Assembly (NCBI GenBank): GCA_002633005.1 | Contig: NMRA01000296.1 | Location: 62,001 to 126,000, forward strand | Origin: Phoronis australis | Taxonomy: Eukaryota > Animalia > Phoronida | DNA length: 64,000 bases | Reading direction: 5' to 3' | Part shown: one piece after another, positions 674-21,549 of the stretch | How positions within the stretch are numbered: the stretch's first letter is position 1 | How the letters are laid out: each line of letters starts with the position of its first letter | Made by a program: the position numbers and the translations under genes | Notes under the pieces: generated by a model | Databases searched by the model: none | What the model was told of the DNA's origin: nothing | Seen by the model: only the letters and a program-made list of their open reading frames with translations

Positions 674-796
674 CCATTTGTTCAACATCCATCCACACTT
701 TGTAGCCAGCCTCCTTCAGCTTGTCCTTGACCCATAACATCGTCTTCTGACTATCCCACTGATAACTAATCATCACGTGCTGCACGTTCTCATGAG
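674..796 (-). CDS. Paralog A exon: TIR domain N-terminal part
   Basis: HVMISYQW..GYKVWMDVEQM is a TIR betaA-alphaA-betaB pattern. Canonical splice sites on both sides. Confidence 0.88.
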
Positions 797-3700
797 CTGC
801 AAAATAAACCACATGAGTTACAACGATCATTTCGTTTCATGTAGGATTGACGAAGCAGTGACGATAAGACGAGACGAGTTCAGTAAATTTTCTTCACATT
901 ACAACACAATATAGTGGAACAGTAAAATTTATATTTTAACAAAATTTTCAACACAAGCAAACAAGAACTAAAATTTTACTGATTAATAAAAATGTTATTT
1001 TTTATGGCTGTCATCAATAAACACACAATGAAAGTTTGAACATTTTTGGATTTTTGGCAATACACTGTCACAGTTTTGGTCATTATTTTTGTTTTAATTT
1101 GAGGAAACTTTAGCGTACTTTGTGTCTCAGGTGTACTACAACCGAACACACTGACAGTGAGTGACAATCTACTTTCATCTTTCACTCGAATCAATTTAAA
1201 GATTGCCTCAATACTATTTCATTACTACAAGTTTGTAAATTACCCCGATTACAAAATTTGTATTTAAAAGATCATGATATCAGAAAGCCAGGTATTCAAT
1301 TAAATCAGTTTTTGGCCACAATAAGATTAAAAACCGGACGATCGCCGCACAAATAAAAAAGTTCAAGTTCAATTCAATGTTTCGTCTTTTCATTAGACAT
1401 CATCAGGATCATATTTACAACAATTTAGGACAACAAGTGCCAACATACAGCTCAGGTAACATCCATAGAGTGAAGTGAGAGATACATAGAATATAGTCAG
1501 TAGCTGGTCATCACCATAGTTACAGGGTCACTGAGCTCTGCATGTTATTCAGAGAATCAGTGGCATGCTGGTTCTGAATGGCCAATGACTCTTTAATGTA
1601 CAGTAACTCATTAGGTTCTCAGCAGACAATACTAACATAGTTGGCTTGGTGATTGTAGCTAATACAATGCCTATATACGTTACTTTTCTCTGAGGTGTGA
1701 TGTTCTTTCAACCTGTCACAGAGGCGTCTCTGTGTGAGTCCTATATAGAATTCCTTACAGTTGTCACATTCAACCTTATACACAACATTGCTCTTGTTCA
1801 ATAAAGGGATGTGTGACTTCAGTTTACACAGCATATTGGAAAGTTTCCGAAGGGTTTGAAAACAACTATCAGTTCAACTGCTGGGTCTATGCAAATTTTG
1901 ATAGTGACGTAGCTATGATTTTCCAGTTATTGCGTGCCAATGGTTACCCTCTGAATTTTCTGAATAGCCGTAAAAGGCACTTTCTTTCAAAAATGAACGA
2001 GGCAGATAAGGTAGCTGTTATTGGACCCGAGAAAAAGAAAGTTATCTTTTCTCTTAGTTACACTGGGTCAAGTAGTATAAAATTGAAACGTCAATTATCT
2101 CGCCTTACTCATTGCATAGACCCACTGACTATACTCTATGTATCTCTCACTTCACTCTATGGATGTTACCTGAGCTGTATGTTGGCACTTGTTGTCCTAA
2201 ATTGTTGTGAATATGATCCTGATGATGTCTAATGAAAAGACGAAACATTGAATTGAACATGAACTTTTTTATTTGCGTGGCGATTGTCCGGTTTTTAACC
2301 AGGTATTCAAGACAGATGGGAGGAGTTTGGACACCACCTGGACATCTACAACTTGTCTCGTACTTTCAAGCTTCGTTGGCGCTCTTCCCCATAACAACAC
2401 TCAACCTGCGCACATATCAGAGTTAGGATGTGTGGCGATTTCATCCACAGCCCTATCATTCTTCAATGCAGTGTGGGACGGTTGACATAAACAACAACAT
2501 GGTGACATGTAAACAATATGGTGGATAACAACACCTGTCACATGCGTGAAAACATGGGTCAACTATAACATGGTAATTGGTGCAAGTACAACAAAGCCAC
2601 CACCATAGAAATACAAAAAAATGAAAAGTCAGTCTAAAAATGCAGTGAATAAAGGCAACTAGAACAGCAAACCTTTTGCGTGAATGATTCTTGACACTAG
2701 TGCCATCTCATCACGCTCAAGTTAAATCTCACCGCCCAGATGCAAATTATAAATCAGATTACACATCCACAAATTATCCATAGGGTCACCGCATGTTTAC
2801 CAGCCAACAATGTCACACAATGCATTTAAAGATAAACAGCAGTGACATCGGATATATCAAATCCCCCAAAGACCAGTGGCTACTGATTTTTTTGTTCGAA
2901 AATCACCAGCATACACTGACTCTCGTACTTACATGCACTTTCCACAACGTCCTTAGTCGTCTCCTGTTCTCCCAGTACCCACAATGCACCTTTTGCCGCT
3001 GCCTGGATTTTATCATTGGAATCACCAAGCAGCTCCTTTAGACCTACAAGGCAAATAAAGCATACCCAAAATTCATAATGAAAATCTCAAGTGGTAACAT
3101 TTTCAATTATTGTCCATAGTAGTGTTGAAAATAACTACAACAAGGAAATTCATAGTAAAACACAACAAGTTACTTGGATATGAAGCATCTTCAAGTAAGT
3201 ATAGGTGAAACATTGAGTGCTCTGATAAGAAGTCAATTGAACAACAACCTTCAAGAGAATACAAACAGTTACCATAGCTGTGAGTTAAAAGAGGTCCGAG
3301 TAGCATTCTCTGAATAATAAGCCAGCTGTTCTTTTATTGTCAATGATTCTTTGACGAACAGTAAACGTTTTCTCAATAAAGAAAAATGTCAGGGCTGTTC
3401 CAGTAAAATCCGTGTGGGAGGGGGGGACGGCAGTAGAAATAAAAATTCATGGGTGGTGGTCTTCAGAAAAAAACTCAAATTATGGGTGGTTGTTCCTGTA
3501 AGAAGTGATGCATTAAAAATGGGTGGTATTTTTTGATCTATTAACGTTGACAGGTTGGTTAATTCAGCCAACACATCTCCAAAGAAATCAAAACTCAAAA
3601 AATGCGATTGGCATATATCCCAACTTATCCCAATACAAAAAAGCCCATATTGCCAGTGAACAGAGTGCAATATGTTCACTAAGCCATTAATCAAGTCATG

Positions 3701-6341
3701 GGCAACTTGATTTGAGCCAAGTGCTTGTCTGCAGTCCTATTGAATTGAAAAGTTATGCAACACTAAACTGGTGTTAACACATATAAGAAAATTGATGATT
3801 TTTAAATAAAAAGTATGAGGAGTAAGATAAACAAGTTCCAATATTCACTTGACATAGAAGTATAAAAGAGTTTGTGGAGACAGTTTGAGATTCATAGATC
3901 CTTATAATTGAAAAAATGTTCATTGAAATTATAGACACATGGTGAACAGAGACACCTGGTGGCTGCCAAAAGTATTGTTCACAGGCTACTTTAATTTTTG
4001 ACAATATTGGACAAGACAACTAGTTCTTGTCTGTCAATCATCTAAGTTCTTAACAGGTCCTCCTGGAGGCAATTTTTTGCAAGTGTTGGATTTTATATTT
4101 TAACCTATTAAAAATAATTAAAAAATTATGGGTCATGGGTTGGAGAAATAAATGAAAAATATGGGCGGTGGGTACGAAATAAAAGTGCCTTCCCCCCCTC
4201 CCATACAGATTTTGCTGGAACAGCCGAACAGTAAACGTTTTCTCAATAAAGAAAAATGTCATGTTTTACAATGAATTTCATCATTATTGTGCTCACATTT
4301 AAATTCTTAGCATAATCAAAATATTCGTCACAGGCTCCAGTTGCAACGGTACGATAATAGCACTTCATCACATTTGTTTTAGGCCAGAAGAGAAGCATGA
4401 ACATTTAGATTGCTCTGGTGTTCAGATCTCAGACATGGATAATGCCACCCTCAGGCTCCTCATAAAGGAGGCTATACATATACGGTTGAACCATGCTGAG
4501 CACTATCTCAACAGAAGAAACATTGGTTCATTTGAGCACCAACTATTTTGATTTCTGGTCTCTCCCCCTCAAAATGCATTTTGACATGTACCTGTACAGT
4601 CTGTTCTCTACCCGTGTTGCCTGTTTGAGTATGTGAACTGTTTCTATGAGAATGGTTTAAAGAAATAAATGGAAACGTGGGATAAACATATGTCGCAAAC
4701 ACTTCATGATTGAAGAGTTTCTCAAAGGATTAGTTCACATTCTTTCTGTAATTCACAGCGGGATCTAAAGTGACAGTTTGAAGCACCGTGCAAGCACAAA
4801 TCAACAGCCAAAACGAACAACTTAGATCTTTCCTTCGAAACAATGTCCGTGAATGAAAAAAGAAACTTTTACCCACCGTCTATGCACCCTGGTTCATCTC
4901 GTATCAGCTGTTTGTTTTCTGGTGAGAATGAAAGAGTCCACAGACCTCTGGCAGCCAGTAACCTTTCATCCTCCGAGCCTTTTAAGCATCTCACATACAA
5001 CGGCAGGGCACCACTCTTAACTATTGTGACTTTGTTGGCGTCATTGATCGCGATCTTGTTCAAGCCAAGCAACACTTCATTGACCGCAAAACCATACCTG
5101 CCAGTGAAGTGGGATTTAAAACTCAGCGCACTTTCCAAGATGGACACGATAAATTTAATGTTCATATCAGATGCGTTGACCATGTCATTTTCTTCCTCTG
5201 TAATAATGTGCGACAATGTCATCACTGCCTTAGTTTTCACCATCAGAAACTTTGAGCGGAGAAATATCTGCAGGACGTCCACTGCACCTGCTTCTCGCAT
5301 GACATCACGAACGTCCAGCCTTGTACAGATGTTGAACAGGATTCCCAAAAGGCCTTTGACAACATACGTCTTGTTCTTTGAACCTTTCAACACCTCAGGT
5401 GCAAATACCTCACTGCGCAGCAAAGCCATGTGCCGAGACATAACGCCAGAGTCGATGACACGCTGGCATATCTCAGAACAAGCATCGGTTGTGTTCCAAA
5501 CAACAAGCATGGCTTTTTGGAAGTTTAACTGCACAGTTAGTCGTCCTTCGGCTTCCTCTTCATAGTATTTCCCATCCTCGACAATTTTAAGCATCTTGGC
5601 ATAGACGTCATCAATGTAGCCTTCGTTTAACACAGTAAGTGCGTTTCGAAGACGCATCTCTCTGTTGCGACCTTTGTTGTATTTGTATAAAACAGCCAAG
5701 TGTTCCCTTATTGTCTTGTCAGTATAATCTGCATTCTCTTCCTTGAGGGCACCAATAGCCTGCTTTATATATTCAGTGTGTTTACTTACATTATCGTCTT
5801 CACTGTCACCATCTTCAGTGTCACTTCCATTCTCCTTATCACCTGAGATTGGTGATTGAGGAGGCTTTGGTTCATCAGAGGAGGGTTGATCTGTTGTATT
5901 CAAATTCTCAACAGCAACATCTAGTGGTTGAGGTGAAGCCTGGGAAGATGTGTTGGTCTCAGCTATGCCCACAAAGTTTGGTTTGCTTACTTTCACTTCA
6001 GCTGACGAGATCAGAGCATGTGATGTGACTGGCATAGATGCTTCAGGATTATGCAACTCACTCTCGCCATTTTTTGCTATGGCCGAAGGCGATGGGTCCT
6101 GCAACCCAACAAAATCCGAAGCCCCAACACTGCTCAACTCAATCAAGGGTTTAATGTCCAAGCTGATTGTGTGTTCACTTCGTTTCCTAGTTGGTGGTAG
6201 TGGTGATGTCCTGCCACCGAGAGGTAATTGGTGAGATGGAAGCGAGGATGCGCTAATAGGAGGCAGTTTCTTCTCAGTCTGTTCTGTTTCCACTCTTCTC
6301 CTCCCTGAGCCAGGACGGTCTTTAGATGGTGCACTCAACAT
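674..6341 (-). CDS. ARM-repeat/TIR protein, paralog A (3' part lies beyond window start)
   Basis: Exons 6341-4877 (ATG; S/P/D-rich N-terminus then ARM repeats; donor G|GTGGGT), 3043-2933 (tag|GT, GLKELLGDSNDKIQAAAKGALWVL, donor T|GTAAGT) and 796-674 (cag|CT, HVMISYQWDSQ...GYKVWMDVEQM, donor G|GTAAT). All three introns are phase 1 and the frame is continuous. Clearly paralogous to 15530-21549. No further TIR exon was found in 1-673. Confidence 0.88.
1300..2298 (-). mobile_element. Penelope-like retroelement remnant with inverted pseudo-LTRs and 12-bp TSD
   Basis: GIY-YIG fragment on - (NVVYKVECDNCKEFYIGLTQRRLCDRLKEH...YIKESLAI). RT-thumb/linker fragment on + (LRANGYP...LSYTGSSSIKLKRQL). ~175-bp inverted repeats at 1327-1501 and 2124-2298. 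CCAGGTATTCAA duplicated at 1288-1299 and 2299-2310. Confidence 0.88.
2933..3043 (-). CDS. Paralog A exon: last ARM helix and linker
   Basis: Not in the ORF track. Translates to GLKELLGDSNDKIQAAAKGALWVLGEQETTKDVVESA, matching paralog B GLKKLSQSGNEKIQEAARGALWVLEEEQTTK. Confidence 0.85.
3392..4225. mobile_element. Non-autonomous DNA transposon (MITE-like) with ~40-bp TIRs
   Basis: GGCTGTTCCAGTAAAATCCGTGTGGGAGGGGGGGACGGCA at the left end has a near-perfect reverse complement at 4186-4225. Flanked by a 37-bp direct repeat. Confidence 0.8.
4877..6341 (-). CDS. Paralog A large first coding exon (disordered region + ARM repeats)
   Basis: 490-aa ORF 4869..6341 with ARM-like helical repeats (VKGLLGILFNIC, REAGAVDVL, GLNKIAINDANKVTIVKSGALPLYV, AARGLWTLSF). 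Acceptor tttttcag|G at 6387/6386. Confidence 0.9.
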
Positions 6342-6437
6342 TTTGTACTTACGTTATCACAATCCTTTGATCTGAACTCTCATTTCCTGAAAAAGAGACA
6401 ATGTACAATAACTGACCTCAAGGGAATTGGTCTTTTA

Positions 6438-6514
6438 CAGGGATCTAGCATTTGGGAACCAGTTTTCGCACCCAATGATGGACATCAAACTGGTTCTCAA
6501 AATCCTGGATCCCT
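6438..6514. repeat. Short inverted repeat (mini-MITE)
   Basis: CAGGGATCTAGCATTTGGGAACCAGTTT ... AAACTGGTTCTCAAAATCCTGGATCCCTG, imperfect ~28-bp arms. Confidence 0.65.
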
Positions 6515-7470
6515 GTGCTTATTGCCGCCCTGAATAGTTTAACAAGGAAACATTGAAACCAAGAGTTTCCAAACAACCACTCTGGTTAAAAACTCTGGAT
6601 GAGGTGCAGTACGGTGTTCTTTTCTTGAGCAGTTCAGTTCACAAATGTATGCTTAGCAGCCCAATTTTCCGAAAACTGTCAATCTGGAACATACTAAAAA
6701 TGGCAAATTTTTCAACGTTCAGCTCCACGAAAAGAAAGATGATAGCTGAATTTAGAAACTGAAAGATTGTTCTTAAACATACGTGTTAACAACACATTTT
6801 GTAAGCCACAGGGCCGTCCCGGATTACACAGTGACACTCGTATCTCGCTTTGTTTACTGAACATCCATCAAGCACTTTTGTAGCCTTGTTATGAGTCATT
6901 GGAGTTCCTTACTCGTTCTTTGTGGTTGTATTCTTTTGATACAAACTTTTTTCAGCTGCATTACTCTATTCTTCCTTCCAATGCCAACGAAGTATTACAA
7001 CTGTGTTGTGGGCAGCAACTGTGATGAGTGAAAGTTGGATAAACTTACCAAATTGTAATGGATGTGTGACGCTTAGTTCTTACTCTTCCCGACATCGATC
7101 AAAAACAAGATAATGCAGAACGAGTGGATAAAGCAAGGTCATTGGGTTAATTTTAAACCAAAAACAATCTCTTTTCTTGAAGATACCTTGTCAATTCAAG
7201 TATTTATAAAGGGTTGGAATCAGGAATACTTCCACAGCCATACACCTCAATAGTTTTCATATGTCCTATGAAAATGTGCCCGATATTCATAAATGAGGCC
7301 AGTGGAAACAACGCGTTTTCTTACCTCCCGGACAAAAGAGAGTTCTATCGCTGTGTGATCCGGAAGAGTCGAATTTGGCATACCATTGTCATTGTCAGAC
7401 TCAGGTTGTTGAACTTGAGACTAAGATCTTGTTTTAGTGACAAAAACTGAAAGCGCTCCGTGGAGCGAAC

Positions 7471-7792
7471 CTTGGCGAAATTATCCAAAAAGATGACGAT
7501 AAAGATGATGACGAAGATGACGAATATGACGACGATGGTGGCGAGGATGAACAATGGAGTAATAATAACATACACATGACGAACGTAGAAGTCCGAAATC
7601 AGTAAGAAAAAGTCTACAGTCTTGTGCGACACTTGGCGAAATTAACGGAAAAGACAACGACGGAGATGATGACGAAGATGATGACGATGATGACGAATAT
7701 GACAATGGTGGTGGCGATGATGAACAACATCACAACATTCATATGATGAACTTAGATTTCATAAATCAATAAGAAATAGGCTACAGTCTTGT
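7471..7792. repeat. Diverged tandem duplication (~160 bp x2) containing GAT/GAC microsatellite
   Basis: Both units begin CTTGGCGAAATTA and end CTACAGTCTTGT. Confidence 0.75.
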
Positions 7793-8778
7793 TCAATAGA
7801 AGATAAACCAACATCAATGTAGCAAGAGCGCTCAACAAAGGACCAGCGTTATCAGAAAATCTCAAATAACTCGAAAAGTAGACGTCCTAGCGAAAAATGA
7901 AAAACATCTTCTGAAAGCCGGTTCAAAATTCTATCTAATCTGATGGTATGGCTTAATTCCGTAAATTTTTCGAAAAAAAATGAAATTTTGCGTTTTTTTT
8001 GAAGAAATTCAAAGTCAAATAACTCGAAANAAAGAAAGGGTGTCGAAAATAAGAATTTATGTAGTAAGTATTTTCGGATACTGGAACCACATGGGCAGTT
8101 TGCAACAAGGACTTTAAATGGAAACAAAATGGCCGCCACAGCCGCTATTGTGGATCCGATTTTGACGAAAAACAATAGGCTTCCAGGACTTCCGGAACTA
8201 CGTGTTATGTGTAAATTTCGTGATGATCGGACGAAAACTGCGACCTGTATCGTGCGAACAAACAAAAAAAAACAAACTTAGTGGAAGAGCAACATACTTG
8301 GCAAAATTTATTTCGCCAAGTAATAAATGATCTGATGACAGATATCGCAAACACAACCAGTGTGTTAACTAATTCACAACTTACCAGGCTCTCATCTAGA
8401 TTCCATGGCATCTAAATGGACACCTCTACTCAAATTTAGACACCCTCCCTAGCCAGGATGTCCTGTTCAGCATTTGTATGCCATGTTCAGAATTTGGATG
8501 CCCCTGTAAGAAAATAAGCATTTTTCACTTTTAACTTTCCAAAAGCAGCTCTGGAAGCTCAATGACCTTGACATAATAAAAAAGTTTAGTTCAAACATGA
8601 TGTGGGATATACGAACTATTACAGACCTATGTCTCCACAGTAACATGACAGCAATTTGACTTGGGGTCATCAAAAATTCAGCTACACATCAGTCGTCGTA
8701 AATATCCTGAGCTGAGAAATCATGGAACCCAGATTTTGAACATTTTGAAATTCTGGATCAGTCGAGCAGCTTACCAAC

Positions 8779-9053
8779 TAGGCAATGACCATCGCCTCTG
8801 TTGGCCCGACCAGAGGCGATTTTGGGAACTGAAATAGGGACTGCTCGAAGAAAAAGTTTGATAACGAGAGTATTTGTTCGAGTTGGAAGGAATTAAACAC
8901 ATCGACAACCTCCTAAGGTGTTACTCTATGTGCAAAAGGTATATGTTTTAGTCAGTGTGAAGCATAATTCGACGAAAAGCTTCCGGCGTACGGAGCGCCT
9001 ATAGGAGCTGCATCGCCTCCGGTCGGGCCAACAGAGGCGATGCTCATTGCCTA
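8779..9053. mobile_element. MITE with 42-bp TIRs and 9-bp TSD
   Basis: TAGGCAATGACCATCGCCTCTGTTGGCCCGACCAGAGGCGAT with its reverse complement at 9012-9053. CTTACCAAC on both flanks (8770-8778, 9054-9062). Confidence 0.9.
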
Positions 9054-9860: not shown

Positions 9861-9975
9861 CTGTAATCAGTGCAGAGTTCCTTCTTAACTTTTAACGAGT
9901 CTCAGCAAACTAGGCATAGATTATAGACAACTATAGTCTATGGTTGCATACCAAACAGTAACACTTCCGGTAAGC
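9861..9975 (-). promoter_or_regulatory. Putative promoter / non-coding first exon of paralog A
   Basis: Donor CAG|GTAAAT at 9861/9860 on -, and an ETS consensus CCGGAAGT (acttccgg, 9963-9970) about 100 bp upstream. Inference only. Confidence 0.35.
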
Positions 9976-12900
9976 TGTAGTGTTCGATTAAAAGAAAATG
10001 AGAAAGCACAACGTTTAAAATTTGTGGTGATGGAATTACCCAGTAAAAGAAAGACATATCTTAAACGATATATTTTTGAGATAGGCTTTGTGTGAAAGAA
10101 ACTTTTTTATTCACGAACATGCTATCTTTCGCAGCGCCCCCATGTGACATGAATAATGAGCGCTGCAAATAAAGCCACCTGGAATTTCTAAGAATATCCT
10201 AGATAATACCAGGGAAGGGCGCACACCAAAAATACTATAATTTCATCTCTTGGCCAACGTTGGTTATTATTATCGACCTTTTTTGCCACGTTCATGCAGG
10301 GGACTCAGCTTAGGCTTGTGCCGGCAACTAAAACGCCCTAGCTAAGCAAGAGTACTGGCATAAATTAGTTTCATCGTTGTGAACTTCCAGAAACGGAAAC
10401 TACTAAGTAATGACCCTCTTCCAGTATATCGAACCTGATTTTCACAAGCACTGCACTGGGAATCTAAATACTAAAAATACAATTAAATTACTAGTTTTAG
10501 TGCCCCCAAGCAATTGAAATAGCCCACCCCTCCGGGGTAAAACACCAGGGCCGGGTAGGCGTTTTGCCCTGAGTCTCACTGATTATCCGTCTGACAAGTT
10601 TATTTAATTTTCAAGAGATTTGCATGACGATGTAACACTGAGGATCGAGTTAAGAGTAATAGGCCTACAGTGTCAACTGTGTGAATGCTAGAGTATTAGA
10701 ATCGAATTATAGACCTATGGCTTTCATTGGTGAGCACAGAAGAAGGCGTCGTTGTATAAACATATTATTATTGCTATTGAAATAAAAGCTGGGAATGCTT
10801 TTTTATTACCATATGACGACGATGTTACTCTAGTTGGTGACTCTCATGTCGTGAACACATCCACTAAAACAAGAAACTGTAGGAACACCGCCTTTATCCA
10901 CCTTCACTCTTATCAGGCTTCTATTGTGAGTCAGCAAGCGTGAATAATTGGCTGATAAGCCACCTCTGGAACTACTTTTGGCTGAATGGATGAACAGGCC
11001 ATAAAATGATAATTAGCCAAGACCAGTTACTATAATGCAACAAAGAATATTGTCTTGCATCACCTAGCCTTGGTGGAAAGCTGTATACTGTATTGGCTCA
11101 AACAAACGCTTAGAAAAATTCATTTCACGGGGAGGGGACGCTTATTGTAGTGAGCCTACGGCAGTTGAAACCCGGTTTCCCAAACGGGTAAAATCGGAAG
11201 CTAGGATTCATCAAATTTACGNNNNNNNNNNNNNNNNNNNNNNNNNNNNNNNNNNNNNNNNNNNNNNNNNNNNNNNNNNNNNNNNNNNNNNNNNNNNNNN
11301 NNNNNNNNNNNNNNNNNNNNNNNNNNNNNNNNNNNNNNNNNNNNNNNNNNNNNNNNNNNNNNNNNNNNNNNNNNNNNNNNNNNNNNNNNNNNNNNNNNNN
11401 NNNNNNNNNNNNNNNNNNNNNNNNNNNNNNNNNNNNNNNNNNNNNNNNNNNNNNNNNNNNNNNNNNNNNNNNNNNNNNNNNNNNNNNNNNNNNNNNNNNN
11501 NNNNNNNNNNNNNNNNNNNNNNNNNNNNNNNNNNNNNNNNNNNNNNNNNNNNNNNNNNNNNNNNNNNNNNNNNNNNNNNNNNNNNNNNNNNNNNNNNNNN
11601 NNNNNNNNNNNNNNNNNNNNNNNNNNNNNNNNNNNNNNNNNNNNNNNNNNNNNNNNNNNNNNNNNNNNNNNNNNNNNNNNNNNNNNNNNNNNNNNNNNNN
11701 NNNNNNNNNNNNNNNNNNNNNNNNNNNNNNNNNNNNNNNNNNNNNNNNNNNNNNNNNNNNNNNNNNNNNNNNNNNNNNNNNNNNNNNNNNNNNNNNNNNN
11801 NNNNNNNNNNNNNNNNNNNNNNNNNNNNNNNNCCCCTCCCGACCTCCCCCATTCGGTGCTATGCGCATCTACAATCGTGGTTTGCGCAAATGCTTACAGC
11901 CGGACAAGATGTTGGGCCCCCCCCCTTGTGATATCCTAGATCCGCCACTGTAGAAGGTGATGTTGTACAACTTGCTGCAGGATACTCGCACGCAAAGCAA
12001 TGGATTTGGTTTAATATTCCCCGTCTCATCCTAGTAGAAACGCATTGGTCAGCCTTCAATTTTTTTGGACGAAATGACAGCACCCATTTTATTCTTTGGA
12101 ACAGAAAATGCTAAAACAAAATGCTGTACATGTAGTTACTGTACTGGTATTAAGATGACCAAGATCATTGCAAAGGGAAAGTGCAACCTTCAGGATTGAT
12201 CTGTGTCTATGGGTGGACTTATCAAATAGCTTTTGAAAAGATTGAAATTGCAAACGGATAAACTTCCAGTACAATGTTGTTGATGTAATGTGAAAGGCAA
12301 TTACACGGTTCTATTCAATTGGTTTCGGTCTTGTCTGTTTGAACTAGGGCGTTGATCAAGAAGAGTACTTTTTCGTCACAATTCAAATATAGGCTTTGCC
12401 AGTTGGTTGTCGGTTGTAGAAAATGCAAATAAGTACAAATTTTACAGAGGTGTTGAGTCTCACTTGTCTTCCTAAAACGGTATTTATGTGGGAAGCTGGC
12501 GCAGCAGCAGATATTTTTATATAGCGAACATTAGAGGTTTACCACAACTCACAAATTAAAAATTGAAAACGGCAGAAGAAATGGTATTCCTCGAAGAAAA
12601 AGAATTCGTAATATTTGTAATACAATAGAGATTGAGAGAGAAGTGCATTTCATGTTACGTTGTCAAGTCCGTATAGATTTAAGAAATAGATTCAGACCAC
12701 GTTGCCACTTTACAAACAACGGTATCGGGTCTCTTTTAAACTCGAGTGCAGTAAATACTTTTAAAATTATTTCAACGTATATTATACAAAGGTCAGTAAT
12801 GGTCAAAAGCGAAATATTGAATCTTTAAAAGGATTCCAAACCCCGTTTTGACGAATTCAACCAATCCTCGTTCAGTTTTCCGCTAACTTTGGCGTCAATT

Positions 12901-15529
12901 TTCCAAGTTAAAGGCGGAAATTAACTAAAAACTTATACCCCCGGTGTCACAAATTGTGTATAATTATTATGGTCCTTGTTGGGTGGCCCTTTCCCTCAGT
13001 TGCCATGAAAGAAGTTTTCAAAATTTTCTCCAAACTGTCGAGGGTTGTCGAGGGTTGCAGAGCGTATTATTTTGTTGCAGAGAACTGGATGGGAGAGTGG
13101 TTTTAGCATCTGTTAAGAGGTCAAAACCGGGTATCAGGCATCCTTTAGTTGCTGTGTACGCGTGTATAAATATGTTCGAACTGTGGACCGATGGCCTCTT
13201 GTTCAATAAAAGTATTATAGTTATCATAATTATTTTTAATCTTTATCATTATTACTACTATTATAACCTCCTATTTCTTCAAAAATATACCCCTCGTGTG
13301 GTTCACTACCAGGCGTGTACTCCTCAGGTATTCTACTTCCATCCGTTCTTTTTCGATTTTTTGCTGCCGATAGGGACTGCTCGACTTTTTCAAACACATT
13401 TGAAAACATCTTTTTTCGTTTCTTCCATTATTAGTTCATAGATACACACGAGCCTTCAGCTGTGGCGTAGAATGGTCATCGGTAGTGCATCCAACCTCGA
13501 AGATTTGAATTGTGTATACGCCGAGCTTACTGGACGCCCATTGTCATTTTCTCCCTCGATTACAGTAAAATTGTTCTCTACAAGTGCTTGTTCTTGTTCA
13601 ACCAGTTATTGATAACTTGATCGACTTTGGTCAATACCTTCCTTTCATGTTAACCAAATAAAAATCCATACAAAGCTCCCATGACCTTATCGCGTGCCGC
13701 TTACTTCATGATTAAACAAATGATGTCGCCGCGTTATCAACACATCGAACCGTTAGAGCGTAGATTCCAGGTAAGTGGAAGAAATACCCTAATGTTTCGT
13801 GTTGTTTGTCGCTCTTTAGATATTCCTTGCCATAATGAAATGATAATTGTTGATTTATGGTCTATGAACTAATGTCATTATTAACCGTAGATGTGTGTAT
13901 ATAGAGAGAGACATTGGTTACATTCGCTACTGTACTCAAGTTGACGTCACATTTCACCGACGATGTTCAGTGCTATGCTGAAAGATACTGTTTTAGAAGT
14001 GAAACGTTTTGCATAATAAACTGTTCGTAGAAACCTTGAACCAACTACGAATAAAATGTGCAGGTAGAAAATAGCTTATGGGACATTTCTTGAATTTTTC
14101 TGTTAGGTTAACCCTCGAAACCAGGCTGTATAAACTGCGTACTTCATATAAAACGGAATGCTGTTGAATTGATTGTATCGACAAGTAAATCCGTGTTCGG
14201 TATTTTCATGAATAAAATATTATCGATATGTAATGTTTTTGTAAATAACATGCAGCATATATTTCAAATCACTGTATATAGAGGTTGGCATCATATTTCA
14301 CGATAACAGTGACATGCTGTATTACAAGCAAATCGTTTTGCATAGTGAACTGCTGGGTGAGAATTTTAACCAAATACGAAAAAATATGCAAATAGAATAT
14401 ATCTTGTTTGCACTGTCTTCAAAATATTACGTACCGATAACATATAGCTCTCAGACGCCCTGCCGGATAGATCATGGCGGACAATATTGGTTTCAAAGGT
14501 CTTAATAAAAACTTAACCCACAGCTTATCAGATAGTATAACTGGTAAGTTAGCATAGGGATTATCGTTTGTACTAGTCGATAGGGTGGCCTTTGTTACAA
14601 CAGGGTCTTTCGAGAGTAGCATGGCTTGTACACGGAACAAATGTTATATATACTCAATAACGTACACTCAAACGTATTTCTCGGATACTAAGAACATGAG
14701 ATTAGTCAATCACATTACGTTTAGAATAACATGCGACCAAGTGAGAAAATTGTTTTCGACTTTCGCATGAAAAAGAGTTTTTGGCTACACAATGCCTAGG
14801 CTTGCTGCTTCTCCTGCCGCCAGAGACCCATGCCATCCTGCTGGTTCAAGCAGGCCTAATACTCAACACTGTGAATTGGCCTCGTGAATGCGGCGCTCAT
14901 TGGACTTTGCAGGCATTTGACTCTGAAGCGACTATCAATGAGGGTTTAAAAAATTACCTCGCTCATCAGACCTTGAGTCCCTGCCTAATGAGCCGGCAAC
15001 TCCAGTCATTGCCTACATTCGCAATTTTACCGCTGGCTATAACCCCAATAAACTCTCGATAAAGAATGCGAAACCGATTTCATGAGCAAAGGTTCCAATT
15101 CTATATTAGTTTTCAAGAAGCTAAACATGACGAAATCCAACCGCTTTAAAGCTGCTGTGAAAACGAGTTTCCGTCCAAACAAGTGAAGTTTTGTTTCGAC
15201 CTCTTACATGAAACCCCTTTGACTTCCTTAATCAGATTACGGATAATTCCTGGGCGTTTCGTTATATCACTGGCCTGAAAATAGGGTCAATGAGGCGTCG
15301 CTTTAGGACCCGAACATTGTCTCAAGAACTATCTTCCTGAGAGGAAAAGGATAGTGTTTTAGTATGATGGTAAGTGGTCTGAATCAAAAGTTATGTTGAC
15401 GGAAAATGAGCTCACTGCCAAGTTTGAAATAAGCTTCATTGTCAAAAGCCTAGCTACACTGAAATGTAAACTGGTTATTTGTTTTGTAGGTTTTCGTCAA
15501 AATGTGCAAGCTTTCCTTTGGATTTCATT

Positions 15530-16811
15530 ATGTATAGACAACAAATGGGTGGAAGAAAAAACATCAGGGGTGAGAACGTAACGCCATCCAGCGGAAGGCG
15601 ACGTGTTTCGGCCAGTTCCCCGTTACCTCCCATTTCCTCTCCGAGTGGGTCTTCTTTACCGCCTAATACAGTGAAAATAAGCGGCCAGTCAACACGACAC
15701 TCTTTACCATGGGAAGATAAAGATGAAAGCGCGAAGCTTGGGACTCAAGCATTGGTTGATAAACCTGAAGACAATAACAGGACCTCAACGAACTTTGGCG
15801 AGATCTCAAATCCGGTAATCCCCGCAGCTACAAACATTCAACAGACACCTAAAACATCCGGAGACGTTAGCAAACAATCACAAGACGAGCATCTTGACAT
15901 TGGCGATGCAGAAAAGGAAATACGAGCGGCCGTTACGAGATTGAAAAGCGAGGAAGCAAGTTACATAGGCAGGGATTGTAGACAGTTTTTCGAAAAAATA
16001 TTTCTTTGCAATACTTACAATTATACAAAGGAGCAACGAAAACGCCGAGCAACGATTTTACTGTACGAAGATTACATAGAGGAAGTATATTTGAAAATTC
16101 TTGAAGATGTTAAAGATAAAAAATGCTATGAAAGAAATGACGAACCAGCAGAAAACCTGAGAACGAATTTTCAGCGGGCAATGGCAACCATCTGGAACAC
16201 GTCCGATGCGTCTTCTGAAATTTGTCAGAGGATACTGGATCTTGGGGTTGTGGACAAGCATTTAGACATGTTAGCTTCTCCTGTATTTGAACCGAAATCT
16301 CTGGCGAATTCCGACAAGATTTACGTTGTCAAAGGACTGCTAGGAATAGCGCACAATGTGTGTCGGCACGTTGATGCCCGCGAGAGACTGCGCGCGGCTG
16401 GCGCGGTTGAAACGCTGCAGTCTTTCGTTCTTTCGAAGTATTTGATGATAAAGACAAAAGCTATACTGACGTTGGCTTATATAATCGATGAGGAAGAGAA
16501 CGATAAGATCCACGCATCAGATAAGAACACTGCGTTTATCGTCACTATTCTCAATTCAGCTCTTGAAGATGAATCTCATAAATCTCAGAAGTATGGGTTC
16601 TCAGTTTTGGAGCTCTTGCGGGGATTAAACAAAATGGCCGCCAACGACTCCAATAAATTAGCTTTAGTGAGGTGTGGTGCCTTACCTTTGTATGTGAAGT
16701 GTCTTGGCGGTTGTGAGAAAGAACAATTTCTATCAGCACAAGGCCTTTGGATATTAGCATTTGGCAAAGGTAATAAGCAGTTGATACGAAACGAACCAGG
16801 ATCTATGGAAG
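15530..16811 (+). CDS. Paralog B large exon (disordered region + ARM repeats)
   Basis: ORF 15479..16831. Acceptor ttttgtag|G at 15489/15490, donor G|GTAAGT at 16811/16812. Confidence 0.9.
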
Positions 16812-19800
16812 GTAAGTGCAAAGTGGTCTGAGTGGTTATTTTTTCATTATTTTTGTCATTTTGTTTGTGATTAAAGGGGTTTCAGTTGAAGACTTCGCTC
16901 GGAAATACAAGTCAATGTGAAGTATAGCCAGCCAGCTAGCTGTATGAAGACTGCCGTCAAAATACAGCTAGGTACCACTGTGTGTATTTGTTCCGTAGAC
17001 CCCGAAATTGCACGCAGCCAGGGTAGTTTTGCTCGTCATCGCGCCGTGAAACTTGTATCAAAATGTAAAGCTAAAAACTGGACGGGGCGCATGCAAAATC
17101 TGGGAATCAACCGATACTCACCTTGCCCGTTACAGCCATTTAAGTAAAAAACAATGCGATGAACGTCATTTTCTTGCGTAACTCTCCGCCTTTTCTAACA
17201 ATGAAAAGTATGACGTCGTTTTGAAAACTATACGCTCGTGTCACGCGCACGCGCCATTTCCTAAATTTTCGCGACAACTTCGGAAAAGCAAAATTTGTTC
17301 TGAAATTCGTTTTTTCGGTATCGAAATTCTAAAAACTTGTAATGAAGTGAAACCAGTTCCAATAATTTGTTGTGACGTGTACGCAAGCTCGTGAAAGAAC
17401 AGCAGTTGGATGAAGAATCGGCGAAAAAAGAAACTGGCCAATAGGTGACGCAATATTTCATGGCGTCGAAAGCCGTCGCTGAAGATCGCTCAACTTTAGC
17501 TGCAGAATAACGGTAGAACGCCATTTTTCCAACACTGTTAAATAATATTGTTTACTGAAGGAAGACTGTAGTTTTTAACGACACTAATTTTGTGTCAGAT
17601 TTTATCTTACCACTTTTTTACCCACATCGGTGCAAAGCTGTATTTTTATATACAGCTTTGTACCAAGGCTATGTGAAGTAATACATCTGATGGCTATTAA
17701 TCCTTTCAATGAAAAATCTTGAAATCAATCTAAAAACTCAAGATAGCGGGACAACTACCTGAGTGTATGAAGACTATCTTGGAAATACGGGATTGCAGTA
17801 AAACTAAACTCTAAAGTGCTTATGAAGATGTTGTTAATTTCATTTGTCACTTTTAGAAGCCCGGTTTGGCGTTTTTCTGTGAGTGATTACCTGTGCTGTA
17901 AACATTCGACAAAGCAGTTATGTCTTTGTTGATCTCTGCAGGATTAAAGAAGCTTTCGCAGAGTGGAAATGAGAAAATACAGGAAGCAGCCAGGGGTGCC
18001 TTGTGGGTACTCGAAGAAGAGCAGACGACGAAAGTAAATCCTCAGCATGAAAACCTGAAACACGTGATGATCAGTTATCAGTGGGACAATCAGCAGACGA
18101 TGTTATGGATAAAGGACATGCTAAAAGGGGCCGGTTATAAAGTATGGATGGACGTAGAGCAGATGGGTGAGTTGAAGATTTGTGGCGCTGGAGAAAGAAC
18201 ACGTGTATTCGCTAGTGTAGGCCCGTGTACGTAATAAATGTGTCATAAAACTAATGGAACCCTTGCCATGTGCTGGCATTTAAAAAGGAAGAAACCCTTA
18301 CCACTTCAAAACATTTTACATCCATACTAAGTAGGTCTACGTTTACCATAAAGCGTAAAAAACCTTTACCACGAAACGTGATGTCATCTGAGCTCAGGCA
18401 CACTTACCACGCACAAATATGGTTCAGTTTTTAATGATCTGGCTCTTTGTAAGTAGCAAGGTCTAGCGGTGACATTTTTCGCAGAGTGGTAAGGTTTCCC
18501 AGCCTATAATAACGGTTCGATTAGTATCGCTTCTGGTGACTTGACATTCATGGGTCCTTGTTGCAGAGGGCAGTATCTTGGAAGCCATGGCGTCAGCAGT
18601 GGAAAACGCTGCTGTTGTCATTATTTGTATGTCACAGAGGTACAAAGACAGCCCCAACTGTAGAACAGGTACGTTCATATTTATTAGAGCTCGACATAAT
18701 GGCGCTGGAAGAGCCTACCGTTGTCATTTTGATTGACGGCTGCTTTAGCTTATATATTGCAAATGGTACAACAAGGAGCACACCTACATGTAGTCTTGTA
18801 AACCTGGAAAGTGGTAAGAGGCGTTATTTCGATGAAGTGCGTCGGCGCTTTAGAAGCCCGGACCTCTAAAACTTAAAAAGTTATGTAGTATATAAAATGG
18901 TCACTTGCTTAGAGACATGGTTGGTTGTTAGCAGACGTTTCGATCTGGTTCGCCAGGTCTTTGTCGATGAATGATGAATTTCCCGCTTTTCGTTCGTTAA
19001 CAATGCTGGAGTACACGGGGGGTTAAGTGGAGTCCTCTGTCCCGGTTCAAGAGGGGGCGCTGACAGTTGATGTGTATGGCCTCGTTGAGCTTACGAGTAT
19101 GCCAAATTTGTTCCTTGGCTAGGATCCTGGATGACGCAAGAGAGATGGTGTGCCCAGTGGCCAAAATAGGTTATATAGGACCTTTGTAAACGACCTCAAC
19201 TCTAAGTCAGATACCAAGAAACTATACTTTTCCACCTTCAGAAAGGAGAAAGATTGAGAATTCTAAAAACAAGCTTCTTACTACTGTGTTTTATTAGTGT
19301 CACGTGACCATGTTTTTAAAAGTCAAATTTTCGTGTGCAAGAAAAGTATATTCATAGCAAAATAACCCCCAGCCGATTTTACTATAACGTTTTTTACAAA
19401 ATGAATATGCCTTGTATTTTGCAAGTTAATATGGCATAAAACCCGAATTAAGTGAATAATCAAAAAGTGCTAAAAGCGTGCAACTTTAGCTGTTTTAGAC
19501 TATCTTTGAAACCTTTCCAATCATCGATAAATGCATTGTTTTTCGGTCCCAGTTACCAATTCTAAACTAATCGGTATCTCTATATGTTTAAGAGGCCGAG
19601 TATACGTTCAAGTGCCGCAAGGACATCGTACCTCTTCGACTGCAGTCACGTTACACTCCCGACGGCTGGCTTGGTGCTATGATTGGCAATAGACTGTACT
19701 TCGATTTCAGCAAGCCCGACACATGGAGTACCACGTTACCGCAGTTAATAAGAGAATTGAAAGATAGGGGCAAATCTGTTGGTGAAATGAACCTGTTGGT

Positions 19801-21549
19801 TGAAAGTGAGGAAAGTGAGTGCTTAAAAATCCTCCTCTGATCGCCAAATCAAATGCAGACTTATTGCGATTTGTATGAGAAGTTGGTGTTAACACGGTGA
19901 ATTTGTTTTTGCATTCTTGCATGCTAGTATTACCCACTGCATTGGTTTTCATCCAATACAGACTGGGGCCAAAGCATTTGCTTTATTGGCTGTACCAGAG
20001 TTAGAATTGTAGTTGACAATATACATAGTGAATACCAGTCCACCGTATGTTTAAATACTTGACAGGTATTAGCAAGATTTGAGATTGCAGTTGCATATTT
20101 TGTATTGAGGACATTCAAACGTACCTCTCAATCCTGGCGTGAATTTTGAAAACTATGCAAACCGCTGAACATCAAATCAGTCGAGCAGTTGTTAAGATGA
20201 ACGTTTGTAATCGTAATGTTAATTTTAGCTGGAGCTGCAGCTTTAGCACACGTTAAGATAACTTTTTTAAATAAATCAACATCATTTTTTATTTAGATAA
20301 CAACGTCTTGAAGTCAGATTCTCCTGGTGTTGAATCGTGGACACGAGACGACGTCCAACAGTGGTTAATTAAACACGACTTGAAAGAATGCACCGACAAG
20401 TAAGCCAGTCTCAGTTTAATACTCTAAAAGCCTTTTCCTTTCATTAATTTGTTTTATTTACAAATTCGCCAGGTTTTGTTTTGTAAAAAAATTGACCACC
20501 TCAGGTTTCGTTCCTTGTACAGACACTTTACTCCTTAGTCTTTGGTGTATAACTGGTGTAACCATATTGCCTGTATAACAATCATTTGTTCTAATATTCA
20601 CCATGAAGGTTCAAGTGGATAGACACCGATTTTCATGTTTTTGAAAATAATCTGTTTAACTGAGACGAAAATGATTAATGCCATTTAAACGATTGGACCT
20701 TTGTCAATAGATTGTGACCAGTTCCTTTGTTTTGTGACTTGCAATCATGGCGAAATTGTGCTTTAAAAATAATGACTTCAACGCAGTCGCTGGAAGTTCC
20801 GTAACTGGTGTGTGCTATACCTGCGATGTATAGATGGCACTGTTATCTTGATTTCATTCGTATATCGAACTCCAAGCTTCCGGAATCAGCATATTTCACC
20901 AAAAGATAATATCATCAGGTAGCTTTTACAATGTATGTGTCATGCCTGGAACCTTTTCAAAAATGCTGTTTTTATAAAAAAACGTCTCTTTTTTGTCGCA
21001 CTTGTCCCGGATGGTCGTGACGAAAAAATTTTATCGGTCAGTCAAAGAAAATCTCAGTTCTCAAAGCTTACACCCAGGAATTTGGCGGGGAGGATCTCTC
21101 TTCTGTAAGAGTAATCCATGTCATATTCAAAGCGCATTCTGTGCCACTATTTCGCAATCTCCGGGGACCGAATACCCCGGGTGTCCAATTTCGCAAGTTA
21201 CACTTTAACTTTATATTACTTCGGACATCTCGACCAGTGCTTTTTTATTTTTAAATCACGTTTAAAAACAAGTCAAAATAAGCGAAATAGTTGTCTTTTC
21301 CTGATACCATGTATGAGTGTGTCCTTTGTCTGCTTACGTTTTGTGTTTTTTCAATCACAATTAAAACTGCATGAATTTTGCCTTTTTAGATTCCAAGAGT
21401 TTGACGGTAAAATTCTACAAGAACTTGTTCAGATGTGCCATTCATCACCTGAGTTTTATTACAAAGCTATGAAAGACGACTTCAAGTTAGACCTGCTACT
21501 GCTACTAAGGTTTACAAATGTTTTGAAATCTTTGATAAATGATTCTTGA
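15530..21549 (+). CDS. ARM-TIR-SAM protein, paralog B (complete, ~686-697 aa)
   Basis: Exons 15530-16811, 17942-18166, 18567-18668, 19593-19814 (or alternative donor at 19781), 20297-20399, 21390-21549 (TGA). All introns GT-AG. Total 2094 nt (or 2061), both multiples of 3, with no internal stop. The start could instead be ATG 15545. Confidence 0.9.
17942..18166 (+). CDS. Paralog B exon: last ARM helix + TIR start
   Basis: GLKKLSQSGNEKIQEAARGALWVL...HVMISYQWDNQ...VWMDVEQM. Splice sites cag| and G|GTGAG. Confidence 0.9.
18567..18668 (+). CDS. Paralog B exon: TIR BB-loop to alphaC
   Basis: Translates to EGSILEAMASAVENAAVVIICMSQRYKDSPNCRT, a different frame from the listed ORF. Splice sites ttgcag| and G|GTACG. 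Confidence 0.9.
18900..19162 (-). mobile_element. Penelope-like element 3' fragment in an intron of paralog B
   Basis: The - strand translates to GHTISLASSRILAKEQIWHTRKLNEAIHINCQRPLLNRDRGLHL (Penelope GIY-YIG C-terminus), followed by a stem-loop + GAAACGTC motif. Confidence 0.8.
19193..19460. mobile_element. Partial copy of the foldback element at 49820-50690
   Basis: Shares ACCTCAACTCTAAGTCA...GAAAGGAGAAAGAT...TGTCACGTGAC...AACCCCAGCCGATTTTACTA with 49871-50080. Confidence 0.75.
19593..19814 (+). CDS. Paralog B exon: TIR C-terminal half
   Basis: EAEYTFKCRKDIVPLRLQSRYTPDGWLGAMIGNRLYFDFS...LIREL. The 3' end is ambiguous between in-phase donors after 19781, 19805 and 19814. Confidence 0.85.
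20297..20399 (+). CDS. Paralog B exon: SAM domain start
   Basis: VESWTRDDVQQWLIKHDL fits the SAM helix-1 signature (V..W...DV..WL). Splice sites atttag| and AA|GTAAGC. Confidence 0.85.
21390..21549 (+). CDS. Paralog B last exon: SAM-like remainder
   Basis: FQEFDGKILQELVQMCHSSPEFYYKAMKDDFKLDLLLLLRFTNVL with the SAM F...DG..L motif. The phase-2 acceptor matches the previous exon. Confidence 0.85.

What the first reader, a model, noticed from the sequence alone, without database searches (positions are those of the whole stretch)
674..21549. Head-to-head pair of SARM1-like ARM-TIR(-SAM) genes: candidate paired NADase/immune signalling module
Seen: two paralogs point away from each other (start codons 6341 on -, 15530 on +) with no recognisable gene in the readable DNA between them. 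Both have long intact ORFs and conserved phase-1 introns after the ARM exon and after DVEQM. By eye the ARM regions are roughly half identical, while the first TIR segment differs at only 5 of 35 residues. Established: SARM1 uses an autoinhibitory, metabolite-sensing ARM domain, SAM oligomerisation and a TIR NADase. Divergently transcribed paired receptors (plant RPS4/RRS1, RGA4/RGA5) are co-regulated and act as hetero-complexes. Inference: diverged ARM sensors on a conserved TIR suggest an old, maintained pair that senses different ligands or hetero-oligomerises through TIR/SAM. I know of no characterised animal pair of this kind, but I cannot search.
Basis: partly seen in the sequence, partly recalled or inferred. 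Interest (0 to 1): 0.85.

Follow-up and report, generated by a model that had tools for sequence, protein, structure and literature searches.

The report
Back-to-back invertebrate ARM-TIR-SAM duplicate genes
These are two real, back-to-back duplicate genes of a widespread, little-studied invertebrate family that has the same kinds of parts as the nerve-degeneration enzyme SARM1 in a different order and likely cleaves NAD+; one RNA sample reads one gene without the other, so they most likely act as independent copies rather than as a plant-style receptor pair.

Summary
Gene B (+, 15530-21549) is a complete 697-aa ARM-TIR_2-SAM gene, with all five introns confirmed by RNA reads and a glutamate (E537) at the predicted catalytic position. 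Gene A (-, from 6341) is its transcribed paralog and leaves the window after 35 TIR residues. These are not SARM1: the domain order differs, there is one SAM, and SARM1 TIR motifs are absent. They belong to a large invertebrate ARM-TIR family (1,046 clusters), multi-copy elsewhere and found earlier by this scan in an oyster. TIR more conserved than ARM is the family default (99% of 1,326 other pairs). A and B are sister duplicates, not sensor and executor clades. One of three RNA runs reads A but not B, and the transcribed regions start about 9 kb apart across repeats and an assembly gap. Best reading: an old inverted duplicate of a likely SAM-clustered, ARM-gated NAD+-cleaving enzyme. One unexpected lead: B reads almost lack the first ~700-900 coding bases, suggesting an ARM-truncated TIR-SAM isoform. 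The rest of A, linkage in relatives and binding between A and B were not testable.

The parts
4877..6341 (-). Gene A coding exon 1: low-complexity N-terminus (about 190 aa) plus most of the ARM domain
   Evidence: ORF, Pfam Arm E=1.7e-9, stranded RNA depth, mean 9.9/5.3/4.9 in X1/X2/X3
2933..3043 (-). Gene A coding exon 2: last ARM repeat
   Evidence: GT-AG, phase 1; family-profile hit; sense reads in X1-X3
674..796 (-). Gene A coding exon 3: linker plus first 35 TIR residues; the rest of the gene is off the window
   Evidence: Pfam TIR_2 E=1.1e-7; sense depth in bin 376-750 is 4.6, 3.3 and 0.02 in X1, X2, X3
6342..6849 (-). Likely 5' untranslated region of gene A; likely transcript start at 6849, with an inferred intron of about 6782-6388
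   Evidence: 5, 8 and 5 molecules end at 6849 in X1-X3; donor-like site at 6782; acceptor-like site just above 6387 seen in the sequence. The intron is inferred, not read
11222..11832 (.). Assembly gap (611 N) between the two genes
15530..16811 (+). Gene B coding exon 1: low-complexity N-terminus plus ARM; reads in X1 and X2 cover almost only its 3' end
   Evidence: Pfam Arm; ARM model pLDDT 77; depth 0.74/0, 0/0, 5.5/4.5 and 37/23 (X1/X2) over four successive bins
17942..18166 (+). Gene B exon 2: last ARM repeat and TIR start
   Evidence: Pfam TIR_2; junction reads
18567..18668 (+). Gene B exon 3: TIR middle; the codon of the predicted catalytic E537 is split across the exon 3/4 junction
19593..19814 (+). 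Gene B exon 4: TIR C-terminal part and linker
20297..20399 (+). Gene B exon 5: start of the single SAM domain
   Evidence: Pfam SAM_2 E=1.3e-4, above the curated cut-off; junction reads
21390..21549 (+). Gene B exon 6: end of the SAM domain and stop; 3' UTR reads continue to at least 21900
   Evidence: family-profile hit E=1e-12; reads

Best explanation
A and B are two old, inverted duplicates of the widespread invertebrate ARM-TIR-SAM family; each likely acts on its own as a cytosolic immune or stress enzyme whose ARM repeats likely gate a TIR domain that is predicted to cleave NAD+ once the C-terminal SAM domains cluster the TIRs. Shown: gene structure, sister relationship, family membership, B's glutamate, expression, and expression of A without B in one run. 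Inferred: ARM gating and its ligand (by analogy with SARM1; no SARM1-type nucleotide pocket is shown), SAM-driven clustering (a model of a relative only), NAD+ cleavage to cADPR or ADPR (from other animal TIRs), and an immune role (family lore). The back-to-back layout is most likely a relic of an inverted local duplication; any mixing of A and B subunits would be incidental. B likely also makes an ARM-truncated TIR-SAM isoform from inside exon 1, which would be less inhibited, like C. elegans TIR-1b.
For: Family: a profile of both ARM exons plus one relative finds 1,046 clusters at E<=1e-3 among 1.84 billion proteins. Of the 150 listed plus P0001, 52 carry the TIR start after the ARM. 20 of 20 full-length hits scanned have TIR_2 after the ARM region, and 6 of 20 also reach a SAM model at E<=1e-3. 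Named members come from annelids, a brachiopod, molluscs, echinoderms, hemichordates, amphioxus and a tunicate. Ptychodera flava has at least 5 members, 3 on a contig of the same length; Owenia has at least 2. Tree of 66 ARM rows, chosen from 126 that span the profile: A+B form one clade at 100/94 (bootstrap not fully settled), and named paralogs elsewhere group largely by lineage. Silent differences are alike in ARM (103/169) and TIR (12/23), p=0.5, so there is no sign of TIR gene conversion. E537 is Glu in 46 of the 47 homologues with a residue there (52 rows, 5 gaps). 12 of 61 animal TIRs with this Glu were active, most making cADPR (bioRxiv 10.64898/2026.04.20.719644). Self-association: three copies of the TIR-SAM part of the Owenia relative P0005 scored 0.36 against a best control of 0.00, with the interface entirely SAM-SAM, head-to-tail. 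The runs agree in at least 37% of contacts and pLDDT is at least 70. The mark was reached by 21 of 30 solved homo-pairs and 0 of 23 single chains (microbes), and on eukaryotes by 17 of 29 (animals 7 of 16) but only 1 of 7 without an older solved relative, so the pass may be from memory of SAM polymers; three copies is also outside the calibration. B keeps 12 of those 28 interface residues identical, and its TIR is 84/125 identical to P0005. Independence: A exon 1 depth 9.9/5.3/4.9 against B exons 2-6 at about 24-52/30-46/0 in X1/X2/X3. There are no B-sense reads in bins 13177-15528 in any run, and A's likely 5' end (6849) is 8.7 kb from B's ATG.
Against: Only 3 raw-read runs from one study were available, each read to 18-19%, and they come from samples other than the assembled one. 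B's absence in X3 could be absence of the gene in that animal rather than regulation. B's long form may have an unseen first exon closer to A, and A and B are co-detected in 2 of 3 runs. The A/B TIR segment is more conserved relative to ARM than all but 17 of 1,326 other pairs, which fits mild co-constraint. No close relative (same lineage) is in the databases, so the sister relationship cannot exclude a pair conserved within the lineage. Only 12 of 61 Glu-bearing animal TIRs were active in the cited test, so the glutamate does not prove activity. The complex prediction is a marginal pass on a stand-in protein. A's catalytic residue and SAM are off the window.
Confidence: 0.68

Rival explanations
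1. One reading: an obligate, co-regulated pair of two full-length ARM sensors with different ligands that hetero-oligomerise through TIR or SAM, like plant RPS4/RRS1.
For: Head-to-head orientation and two maintained frames; TIR conservation at the high end of the family range; both genes read in X1 and X2; SAM-SAM self-association predicted for a relative makes mixing of paralogs physically plausible.
Against: A is read without B in X3, and B's ARM-coding 5' part is almost unread in all three runs. About 9 kb of repeat-rich DNA and a gap lie between the transcribed regions. TIR more conserved than ARM is the family default. A and B are sisters, whereas plant sensors and executors form distinct subclades (PMC6709784). 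19 of 19 conserved ARM positions are shared, and the groove helices diverge no faster than the rest, 44/78 against 80/145.
Confidence: 0.07
2. Asymmetric split pair: A supplies mainly ARM (possibly ARM plus a dead TIR stub, by stopping in intron 3) and restrains in trans an ARM-truncated, otherwise active TIR-SAM made from B.
For: B reads begin within bin 16201-16536, near in-frame Met306 and Met369. A is read across its whole ARM exon in all 3 runs, and B is read only in runs that also read A. Sense reads lie in A intron 3 (bin 1-375: 1.55, 2.19, 0). Annotated Patella isoforms stop at the same intron. The ARM-less TIR-1b isoform of C. elegans is described as an activated form (PMC10121217).
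Against: This rests on coarse depth bins only; no 5' end, junction or poly(A) site was read for either short form. Some depth on A exon 3 could be cross-laid B reads (82% alike). A's downstream exons cannot be seen. n = 3 samples. No interaction data.
Confidence: 0.07
3. The odd read pattern reflects population variation: presence-absence of B, or alleles and chimeric paralogs whose 5' ARM region is under 90% alike to the assembled copy, in a fast birth-and-death cluster.
For: Coverage falls abruptly inside B exon 1 while the 3' exons match closely; X3 lacks B and the TIR part of A exon 3; gene presence-absence variation is reported for mussels (PMC7653742, search listing only).
Against: About two reads' worth of depth (0.74) lies on B's 5' exon 1 in X1, so a matching 5' end is transcribed rarely. 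X1 and X2 show the same fall-off. A's exon 1 is well covered at the same threshold.
Confidence: 0.1
4. A is a decaying or truncated copy (an ARM-only relic) and only B is functional.
For: No sense depth on the TIR part of A exon 3 in X3, and sense reads in intron 3 in X1 and X2; A's intron 2 carries a transposon relic.
Against: 566 open codons with intact splice signals; amino-acid differences far fewer than silent ones, pN 0.32 (ARM) and 0.06 (TIR) against pS of about 0.8; all 19 conserved ARM positions kept; transcribed in 3 of 3 runs.
Confidence: 0.08

Closest known systems
Invertebrate ARM-TIR class (oyster survey PMC4346834; Aplysia survey PMC9334734, 11 genes; the ecTIR-DC families of Gerdol et al. 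2017, PMID 28109746, paper not held)
   Same: ARM repeats plus a TIR_2-type TIR, cytosolic, multi-copy in marine invertebrates, described as of unknown function.
   Different: The surveys as I saw them count ARM-TIR genes without describing the C-terminal SAM or the genomic arrangement. I could not assign an ecTIR-DC family number. The ARM-truncated expression of B is not described in what I read.
SARM1 / TIR-1 / dSarm
   Same: Same three domain kinds, and a Glu at the catalytic position in B. SARM1 and TIR-1 are the top Foldseek matches of a full-length relative's model (E 5e-7, TM 0.28, 11-13% identity). The family profile matches the SAM region of TIR-1.
   Different: Order ARM-TIR-SAM against ARM-SAM-SAM-TIR; one SAM; none of three SARM1 TIR motifs; ARM no closer to SARM1's than to other ARM folds (Z 16.0, tied with V-ATPase H 16.2, CNOT9 16.1 and beta-catenin 15.7); multi-copy rather than typically single-copy.
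Plant paired NLRs (RPS4/RRS1, RGA4/RGA5)
   Same: Head-to-head paralogous genes with a TIR (RPS4/RRS1).
   Different: No NB-LRR; no integrated decoy or architectural asymmetry in the visible parts; sister duplicates rather than sensor and executor subclades; A read without B in one of three runs; no hetero-complex shown.

Membership tests
SARM1 orthologs | ARM-SAM-SAM-TIR order with a C-terminal TIR | tested here: not met
   B is ARM-TIR-SAM; in A the TIR follows the ARM directly
SARM1 orthologs | Tandem SAM domains | tested here: not met
   One SAM of about 75 aa at B's C-terminus; the model of P0005 has one helical domain after the linker
SARM1 orthologs | Group-24 TIR motifs (Box 1 PDVFISY, BB loop E(R/K)LEAG, EE loop H(D/E)YQ; PMC7075850) | tested here: not met
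   None in B, none in the visible part of A, 0 of 37 family members
SARM1 orthologs | ARM domain homologous to SARM1's, with the NMN/NAD+ allosteric pocket | tested here: inconclusive
   SARM1 is not among the 25 PDB sequence hits of B's ARM. The structural match (Z 16.0, rmsd 4.2, 227 aligned, 12% identity) is tied with unrelated ARM proteins. Pocket residues were not compared.
Catalytic TIR (NADase / cADPR synthase) | Conserved Glu on helix alphaC | tested here: met
   B E537; Glu in 46 of 47 homologues with a residue there. Its assignment as the catalytic position uses the recalled C-x-x-E motif. Off the window for A.
Catalytic TIR (NADase / cADPR synthase) | Measured NAD+ turnover | not testable with these tools
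   Needs an assay
Invertebrate ARM-TIR(-SAM) family | ARM repeats followed by a TIR_2 domain, alignable over the whole length with family members | tested here: met
   A profile of 37 homologues matches B 94-693 (E 5e-205) and A 156-566 (E 1e-117); Pfam
Invertebrate ARM-TIR(-SAM) family | Assignment to a numbered ecTIR-DC family | not testable with these tools
   Defining paper not held
Paired receptors (RPS4/RRS1 type) | Adjacent, head-to-head genes | tested here: met
   across a 611-N gap
Paired receptors (RPS4/RRS1 type) | Partners fall in distinct sensor and executor clades | tested here: not met
   A+B are sisters, 100/94, among 66 rows; no close relatives of this lineage were sampled
Paired receptors (RPS4/RRS1 type) | Both partners expressed together | tested here: inconclusive
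   Together in 2 of 3 raw-read runs, A alone in X3, and B mostly without its ARM 5' part; too few samples, and the samples' genotypes are unknown
Paired receptors (RPS4/RRS1 type) | Role asymmetry (integrated decoy or dead signalling domain in one partner) | tested here: inconclusive
   Visible coding parts are symmetric; A's C-terminal half is off the window; read depth hints at asymmetric isoforms
Paired receptors (RPS4/RRS1 type) | Linkage conserved in relatives | not testable with these tools
   No genome is held for the window, and the genome search tools hold prokaryotes
Paired receptors (RPS4/RRS1 type) | Physical hetero-complex needed for function | not testable with these tools
   A's TIR and SAM are unavailable, and B's TIR is split over three exons

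The most novel reading that the evidence does not exclude
An animal sensor/executor pair made by isoform choice: gene A provides an ARM-bearing (perhaps TIR-truncated) sensor and repressor, and its back-to-back sister B provides an ARM-truncated, SAM-clustered TIR NADase that A holds in check until a ligand binds. This would be the animal counterpart of RRS1/RPS4, built from SARM1-type parts in a new order.
Probability: 0.07. Interest if true: 0.8.

Novelty: new member of a known kind. Interest (0 to 1): 0.3.

Why it matters
The pair itself is most likely an ordinary duplication. The family is the more useful target: more than a thousand clusters of invertebrate proteins with SARM1's domain kinds in another order and a conserved catalytic-position glutamate, for which my searches found no functional study. 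B gives a read-validated gene model, and apparently a natural ARM-truncated form, with which ARM gating and NAD+ cleavage can be tested directly. If the split sensor/executor reading were true, it would extend paired-receptor logic from plants to animals; a search for such animal pairs listed none.

Tried and rejected
The window's genome is not held, so there is no flank for A, no genome-wide copy count and no synteny. The word-index protein search with B's ARM found 1 hit among 3,863 candidates; the profile search was needed. No indexed RNA holder was listed for B exon 1 (no evidence either way); three raw-read runs with the same species label were laid instead. The X4 contigs were uninformative: one 156-base piece on A exon 1 and none on B's exons. 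The ESM Atlas returned only generic ARM clusters. A PDB sequence search with B exon 2 gave nothing significant. SARM1 was not among the rows shown by Foldseek for B's ARM model. TIR gene conversion between A and B was rejected. Faster divergence of the ARM groove helices was rejected. No non-coding similarity between the two loci marks the duplication breakpoints beyond two short repeat-like matches. A lophotrochozoan placement of A+B in the quick tree (support 90) did not hold in the careful tree, so I do not claim it. Of 153 sequences scored, 126 spanned the ARM profile and 66 went into the tree (the top 60 by score plus 6 named rows); 17 of the 66 were labelled with an organism, from the look-ups made before the tree. 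An A-B hetero-complex was not modelled; the one complex job went to self-association of a relative. Gerdol 2017 is not held. Table S4 of the bioRxiv TIR survey was not seen and may say whether a TIR of this family was already assayed (its Figure 3 legend lists an ARM-containing architecture).


Full report
1. Observation. Gene B (+) has six coding exons (15530-16811, 17942-18166, 18567-18668, 19593-19814, 20297-20399, 21390-21549) that give an open 697-aa protein. Stranded RNA reads span all 5 of 5 introns in runs X1 and X2. Gene A (-) has three coding exons in the window (6341-4877, 3043-2933, 796-674; 566 aa) and stops being visible after 35 TIR residues; no further family-like exon lies in 1-673. 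Pfam gives Arm on both first exons, TIR_2 on the following exons and SAM_2 on B exon 5. ARM identity is 51-52% and the TIR segment 30/35. Silent sites are saturated (pS about 0.8) while pN is 0.32 (ARM) and 0.06 (TIR), so the duplication is old and both frames look maintained. A has one intron that B lacks. A 611-N gap lies between the genes. No third copy is in the window, and three intergenic ORFs (one scanned in part) gave no Pfam hit.

2. What they are. A profile of both ARM exons and one relative found 1,046 clusters at E<=1e-3 among 1.84 billion proteins. Of the 150 listed plus P0001, 52 include the TIR start; many of the others end at the ARM exon boundary (58 of the 118 that reach the profile end). 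All 20 of 20 full-length hits scanned carry TIR_2 after the ARM region, and 6 of 20 reach a SAM model at E<=1e-3. Of 30 hits looked up, named ones come from Owenia, Dimorphilus, Lingula, five molluscs (Sinanodonta, Argopecten, Dreissena, Patella, Ylistrum), three echinoderms, three hemichordates, Branchiostoma and Clavelina. Ptychodera flava has at least five members, three on a contig of the same length. This matches the invertebrate ARM-TIR class counted in oyster and Aplysia surveys (PMC4346834, passages and section 7; PMC9334734, passages, 11 genes of unknown function). The related ecTIR-DC classification is known to me only through citing papers (PMC6321704, PMC6836662, PMC5549309; passages).

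3. Not SARM1. The order is ARM-TIR-SAM with one SAM. The three TIR motifs that define SARM1 orthologs (PMC7075850, passages) are absent from B, from the visible part of A and from 37 of 37 family members. B's ARM has no SARM1 hit among 25 PDB sequence matches, and structurally it is as close to V-ATPase H, CNOT9 and beta-catenin as to SARM1 (Z 15.7-16.2). In the other direction, a full-length model of the Owenia relative P0005 (pLDDT 83) has SARM1 and TIR-1 as its top four Foldseek hits, at TM 0.23-0.28 and 11-13% identity, as expected from sharing all three domain kinds. It may work like SARM1 without being a member.

4. The pair argument. Among 1,326 pairs of other members, the 35-residue TIR segment is more identical than the ARM in 99% (medians 54% against 28%). 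A/B lies at the conserved end: 17 of 1,326 pairs have as low a TIR/ARM distance ratio. But the expected identity at this ARM distance is 76%, and P(>=30/35)=0.12; the five pairs with ARM identity 0.56-0.64 have TIR identities of 0.77, 0.57, 0.83, 0.86 and 0.83 (the pairs are not independent). Silent differences are the same in both domains, so conversion does not explain it. The intron after DVEQM appears ancestral: two annotated Patella isoforms end exactly there. In a 66-row ARM tree A and B are sisters (100/94), whereas plant sensor and executor partners form distinct subclades (PMC6709784, passages) and have distinct roles in a hetero-complex (PMC4246468, passages). No close relative is sampled, so a pair conserved within this lineage is not excluded. 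A and B share 19 of 19 ARM positions conserved in at least 80% of 52 homologues, and their groove helices diverge at the background rate.

5. Expression. Three stranded raw-read runs with the same species label were laid at 90% likeness, 18-19% of each. A exon 1 has mean depth 9.9, 5.3 and 4.9; B exons 2-6 about 24-52, 30-46 and 0. So X3 reads A but not B. In all three runs molecules end at 6849, the likely 5' end of A. No B-sense reads lie in 13177-15528, so the transcribed regions start at least 8.7 kb apart, with repeats and the gap between. Unexpectedly, B's depth in X1 and X2 is 0.74/0 and 0/0 over the first two bins of exon 1, 5.5/4.5 in the third and 37/23 in the fourth, while A's exon 1 is covered throughout in the same libraries. 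An internal start, a cryptic acceptor or a diverged 5' allele could each give this; in-frame Met306 (16445) and Met369 (16634) are available. For A, X3 has almost no depth on the TIR part of exon 3 (0.02), and X1 and X2 have sense depth in intron 3; part of the exon 3 depth in X1 and X2 could be cross-laid B reads. These are coarse bins, three samples and unknown genotypes.

6. Mechanism. B has Glu537 in a C-x-x-E motif (its catalytic role is recalled, not tested), conserved in 46 of 47 homologues. A recent survey found 12 of 61 Glu-bearing animal TIRs active, mostly making cADPR (bioRxiv 10.64898/2026.04.20.719644; parts 1-3 of 6 read, supplements not seen). Three copies of P0005's TIR-SAM were predicted to associate head-to-tail through SAM: score 0.36 against a best control of 0.00, at least 37% of contacts shared between runs, pLDDT at least 70. 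The mark was reached by 21 of 30 solved homo-pairs and 0 of 23 single chains in microbes, and by 17 of 29 eukaryote pairs but only 1 of 7 without an older solved relative, so it may come from memory of SAM polymers. B keeps 12 of the 28 interface residues. I therefore infer ARM gating, then SAM clustering, then TIR NAD+ cleavage, in each paralog separately. An ARM-truncated B form would parallel C. elegans TIR-1b, described as activated (PMC10121217, passages). The ligand and the immune role are not shown.

7. Literature scope. Searches listed no functional study of this family and no characterised head-to-head ARM-TIR pair in animals; most subscription papers are not in the library. PMC5094078 and PMC2575513 were seen as passages (the latter reports a TIR-SAM transcript in amphioxus), and PMC7653742 as a listing only.

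8. Verdict. A real observation and a new member of a known kind. The paired-module reading is not supported by the tests that could be run. Best explanation 0.68; obligate pair 0.07; split sensor/executor by isoform 0.07; allelic or presence-absence effects 0.10; A decaying 0.08. Interest 0.3.

Noticed in passing
window 15530-16811 (+): RNA reads of B in X1 and X2 cover almost only the 3' end of exon 1 and the later exons, suggesting an ARM-truncated TIR-SAM isoform or a diverged 5' allele.
   Followed up: partly
window 1-796 (-): X3 has next to no reads on the TIR part of A exon 3 although exons 1-2 are read; X1 and X2 have sense reads in intron 3, whose read-through frame would end at 510 with a catalytically dead TIR stub.
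   Followed up: partly
window 1327-2298 (A intron 2): Broken GIY-YIG endonuclease relic on the - strand (about 1834-1510; Pfam E 4e-4, below the cut-off; Penelope-like by recall), flanked by a 175-bp inverted repeat, 97% alike, at 1327-1501 and 2124-2298.
   Followed up: partly
window 21922-22475: Two 276-bp tandem copies, 99% alike, split by a single N at 22199: probably an assembly overlap artefact.
   Followed up: no
window 29983-30651 (+): Single-ORF CD20-like (MS4A) membrane protein, Pfam E 3e-8.
   Followed up: no
window 45775-47780 (+): ETS-domain transcription factor exons (Pfam Ets); PEA3-like by recall.
   Followed up: no
window 63540-63941 (+): Exon resembling the N-terminus of a MAP3K12/13 (DLK/LZK) kinase by recall; Pfam gave no significant hit.
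   Followed up: no
proteins P0167, P0168 (Patella vulgata): Annotated isoforms of a family member end right after the first TIR segment, giving ARM plus a TIR stub.
   Followed up: partly
protein P0083 (Dimorphilus): A 1,195-aa family member with two TIR_2 stretches, possibly a tandem fusion of two ARM-TIR units or a merged gene model.
   Followed up: no
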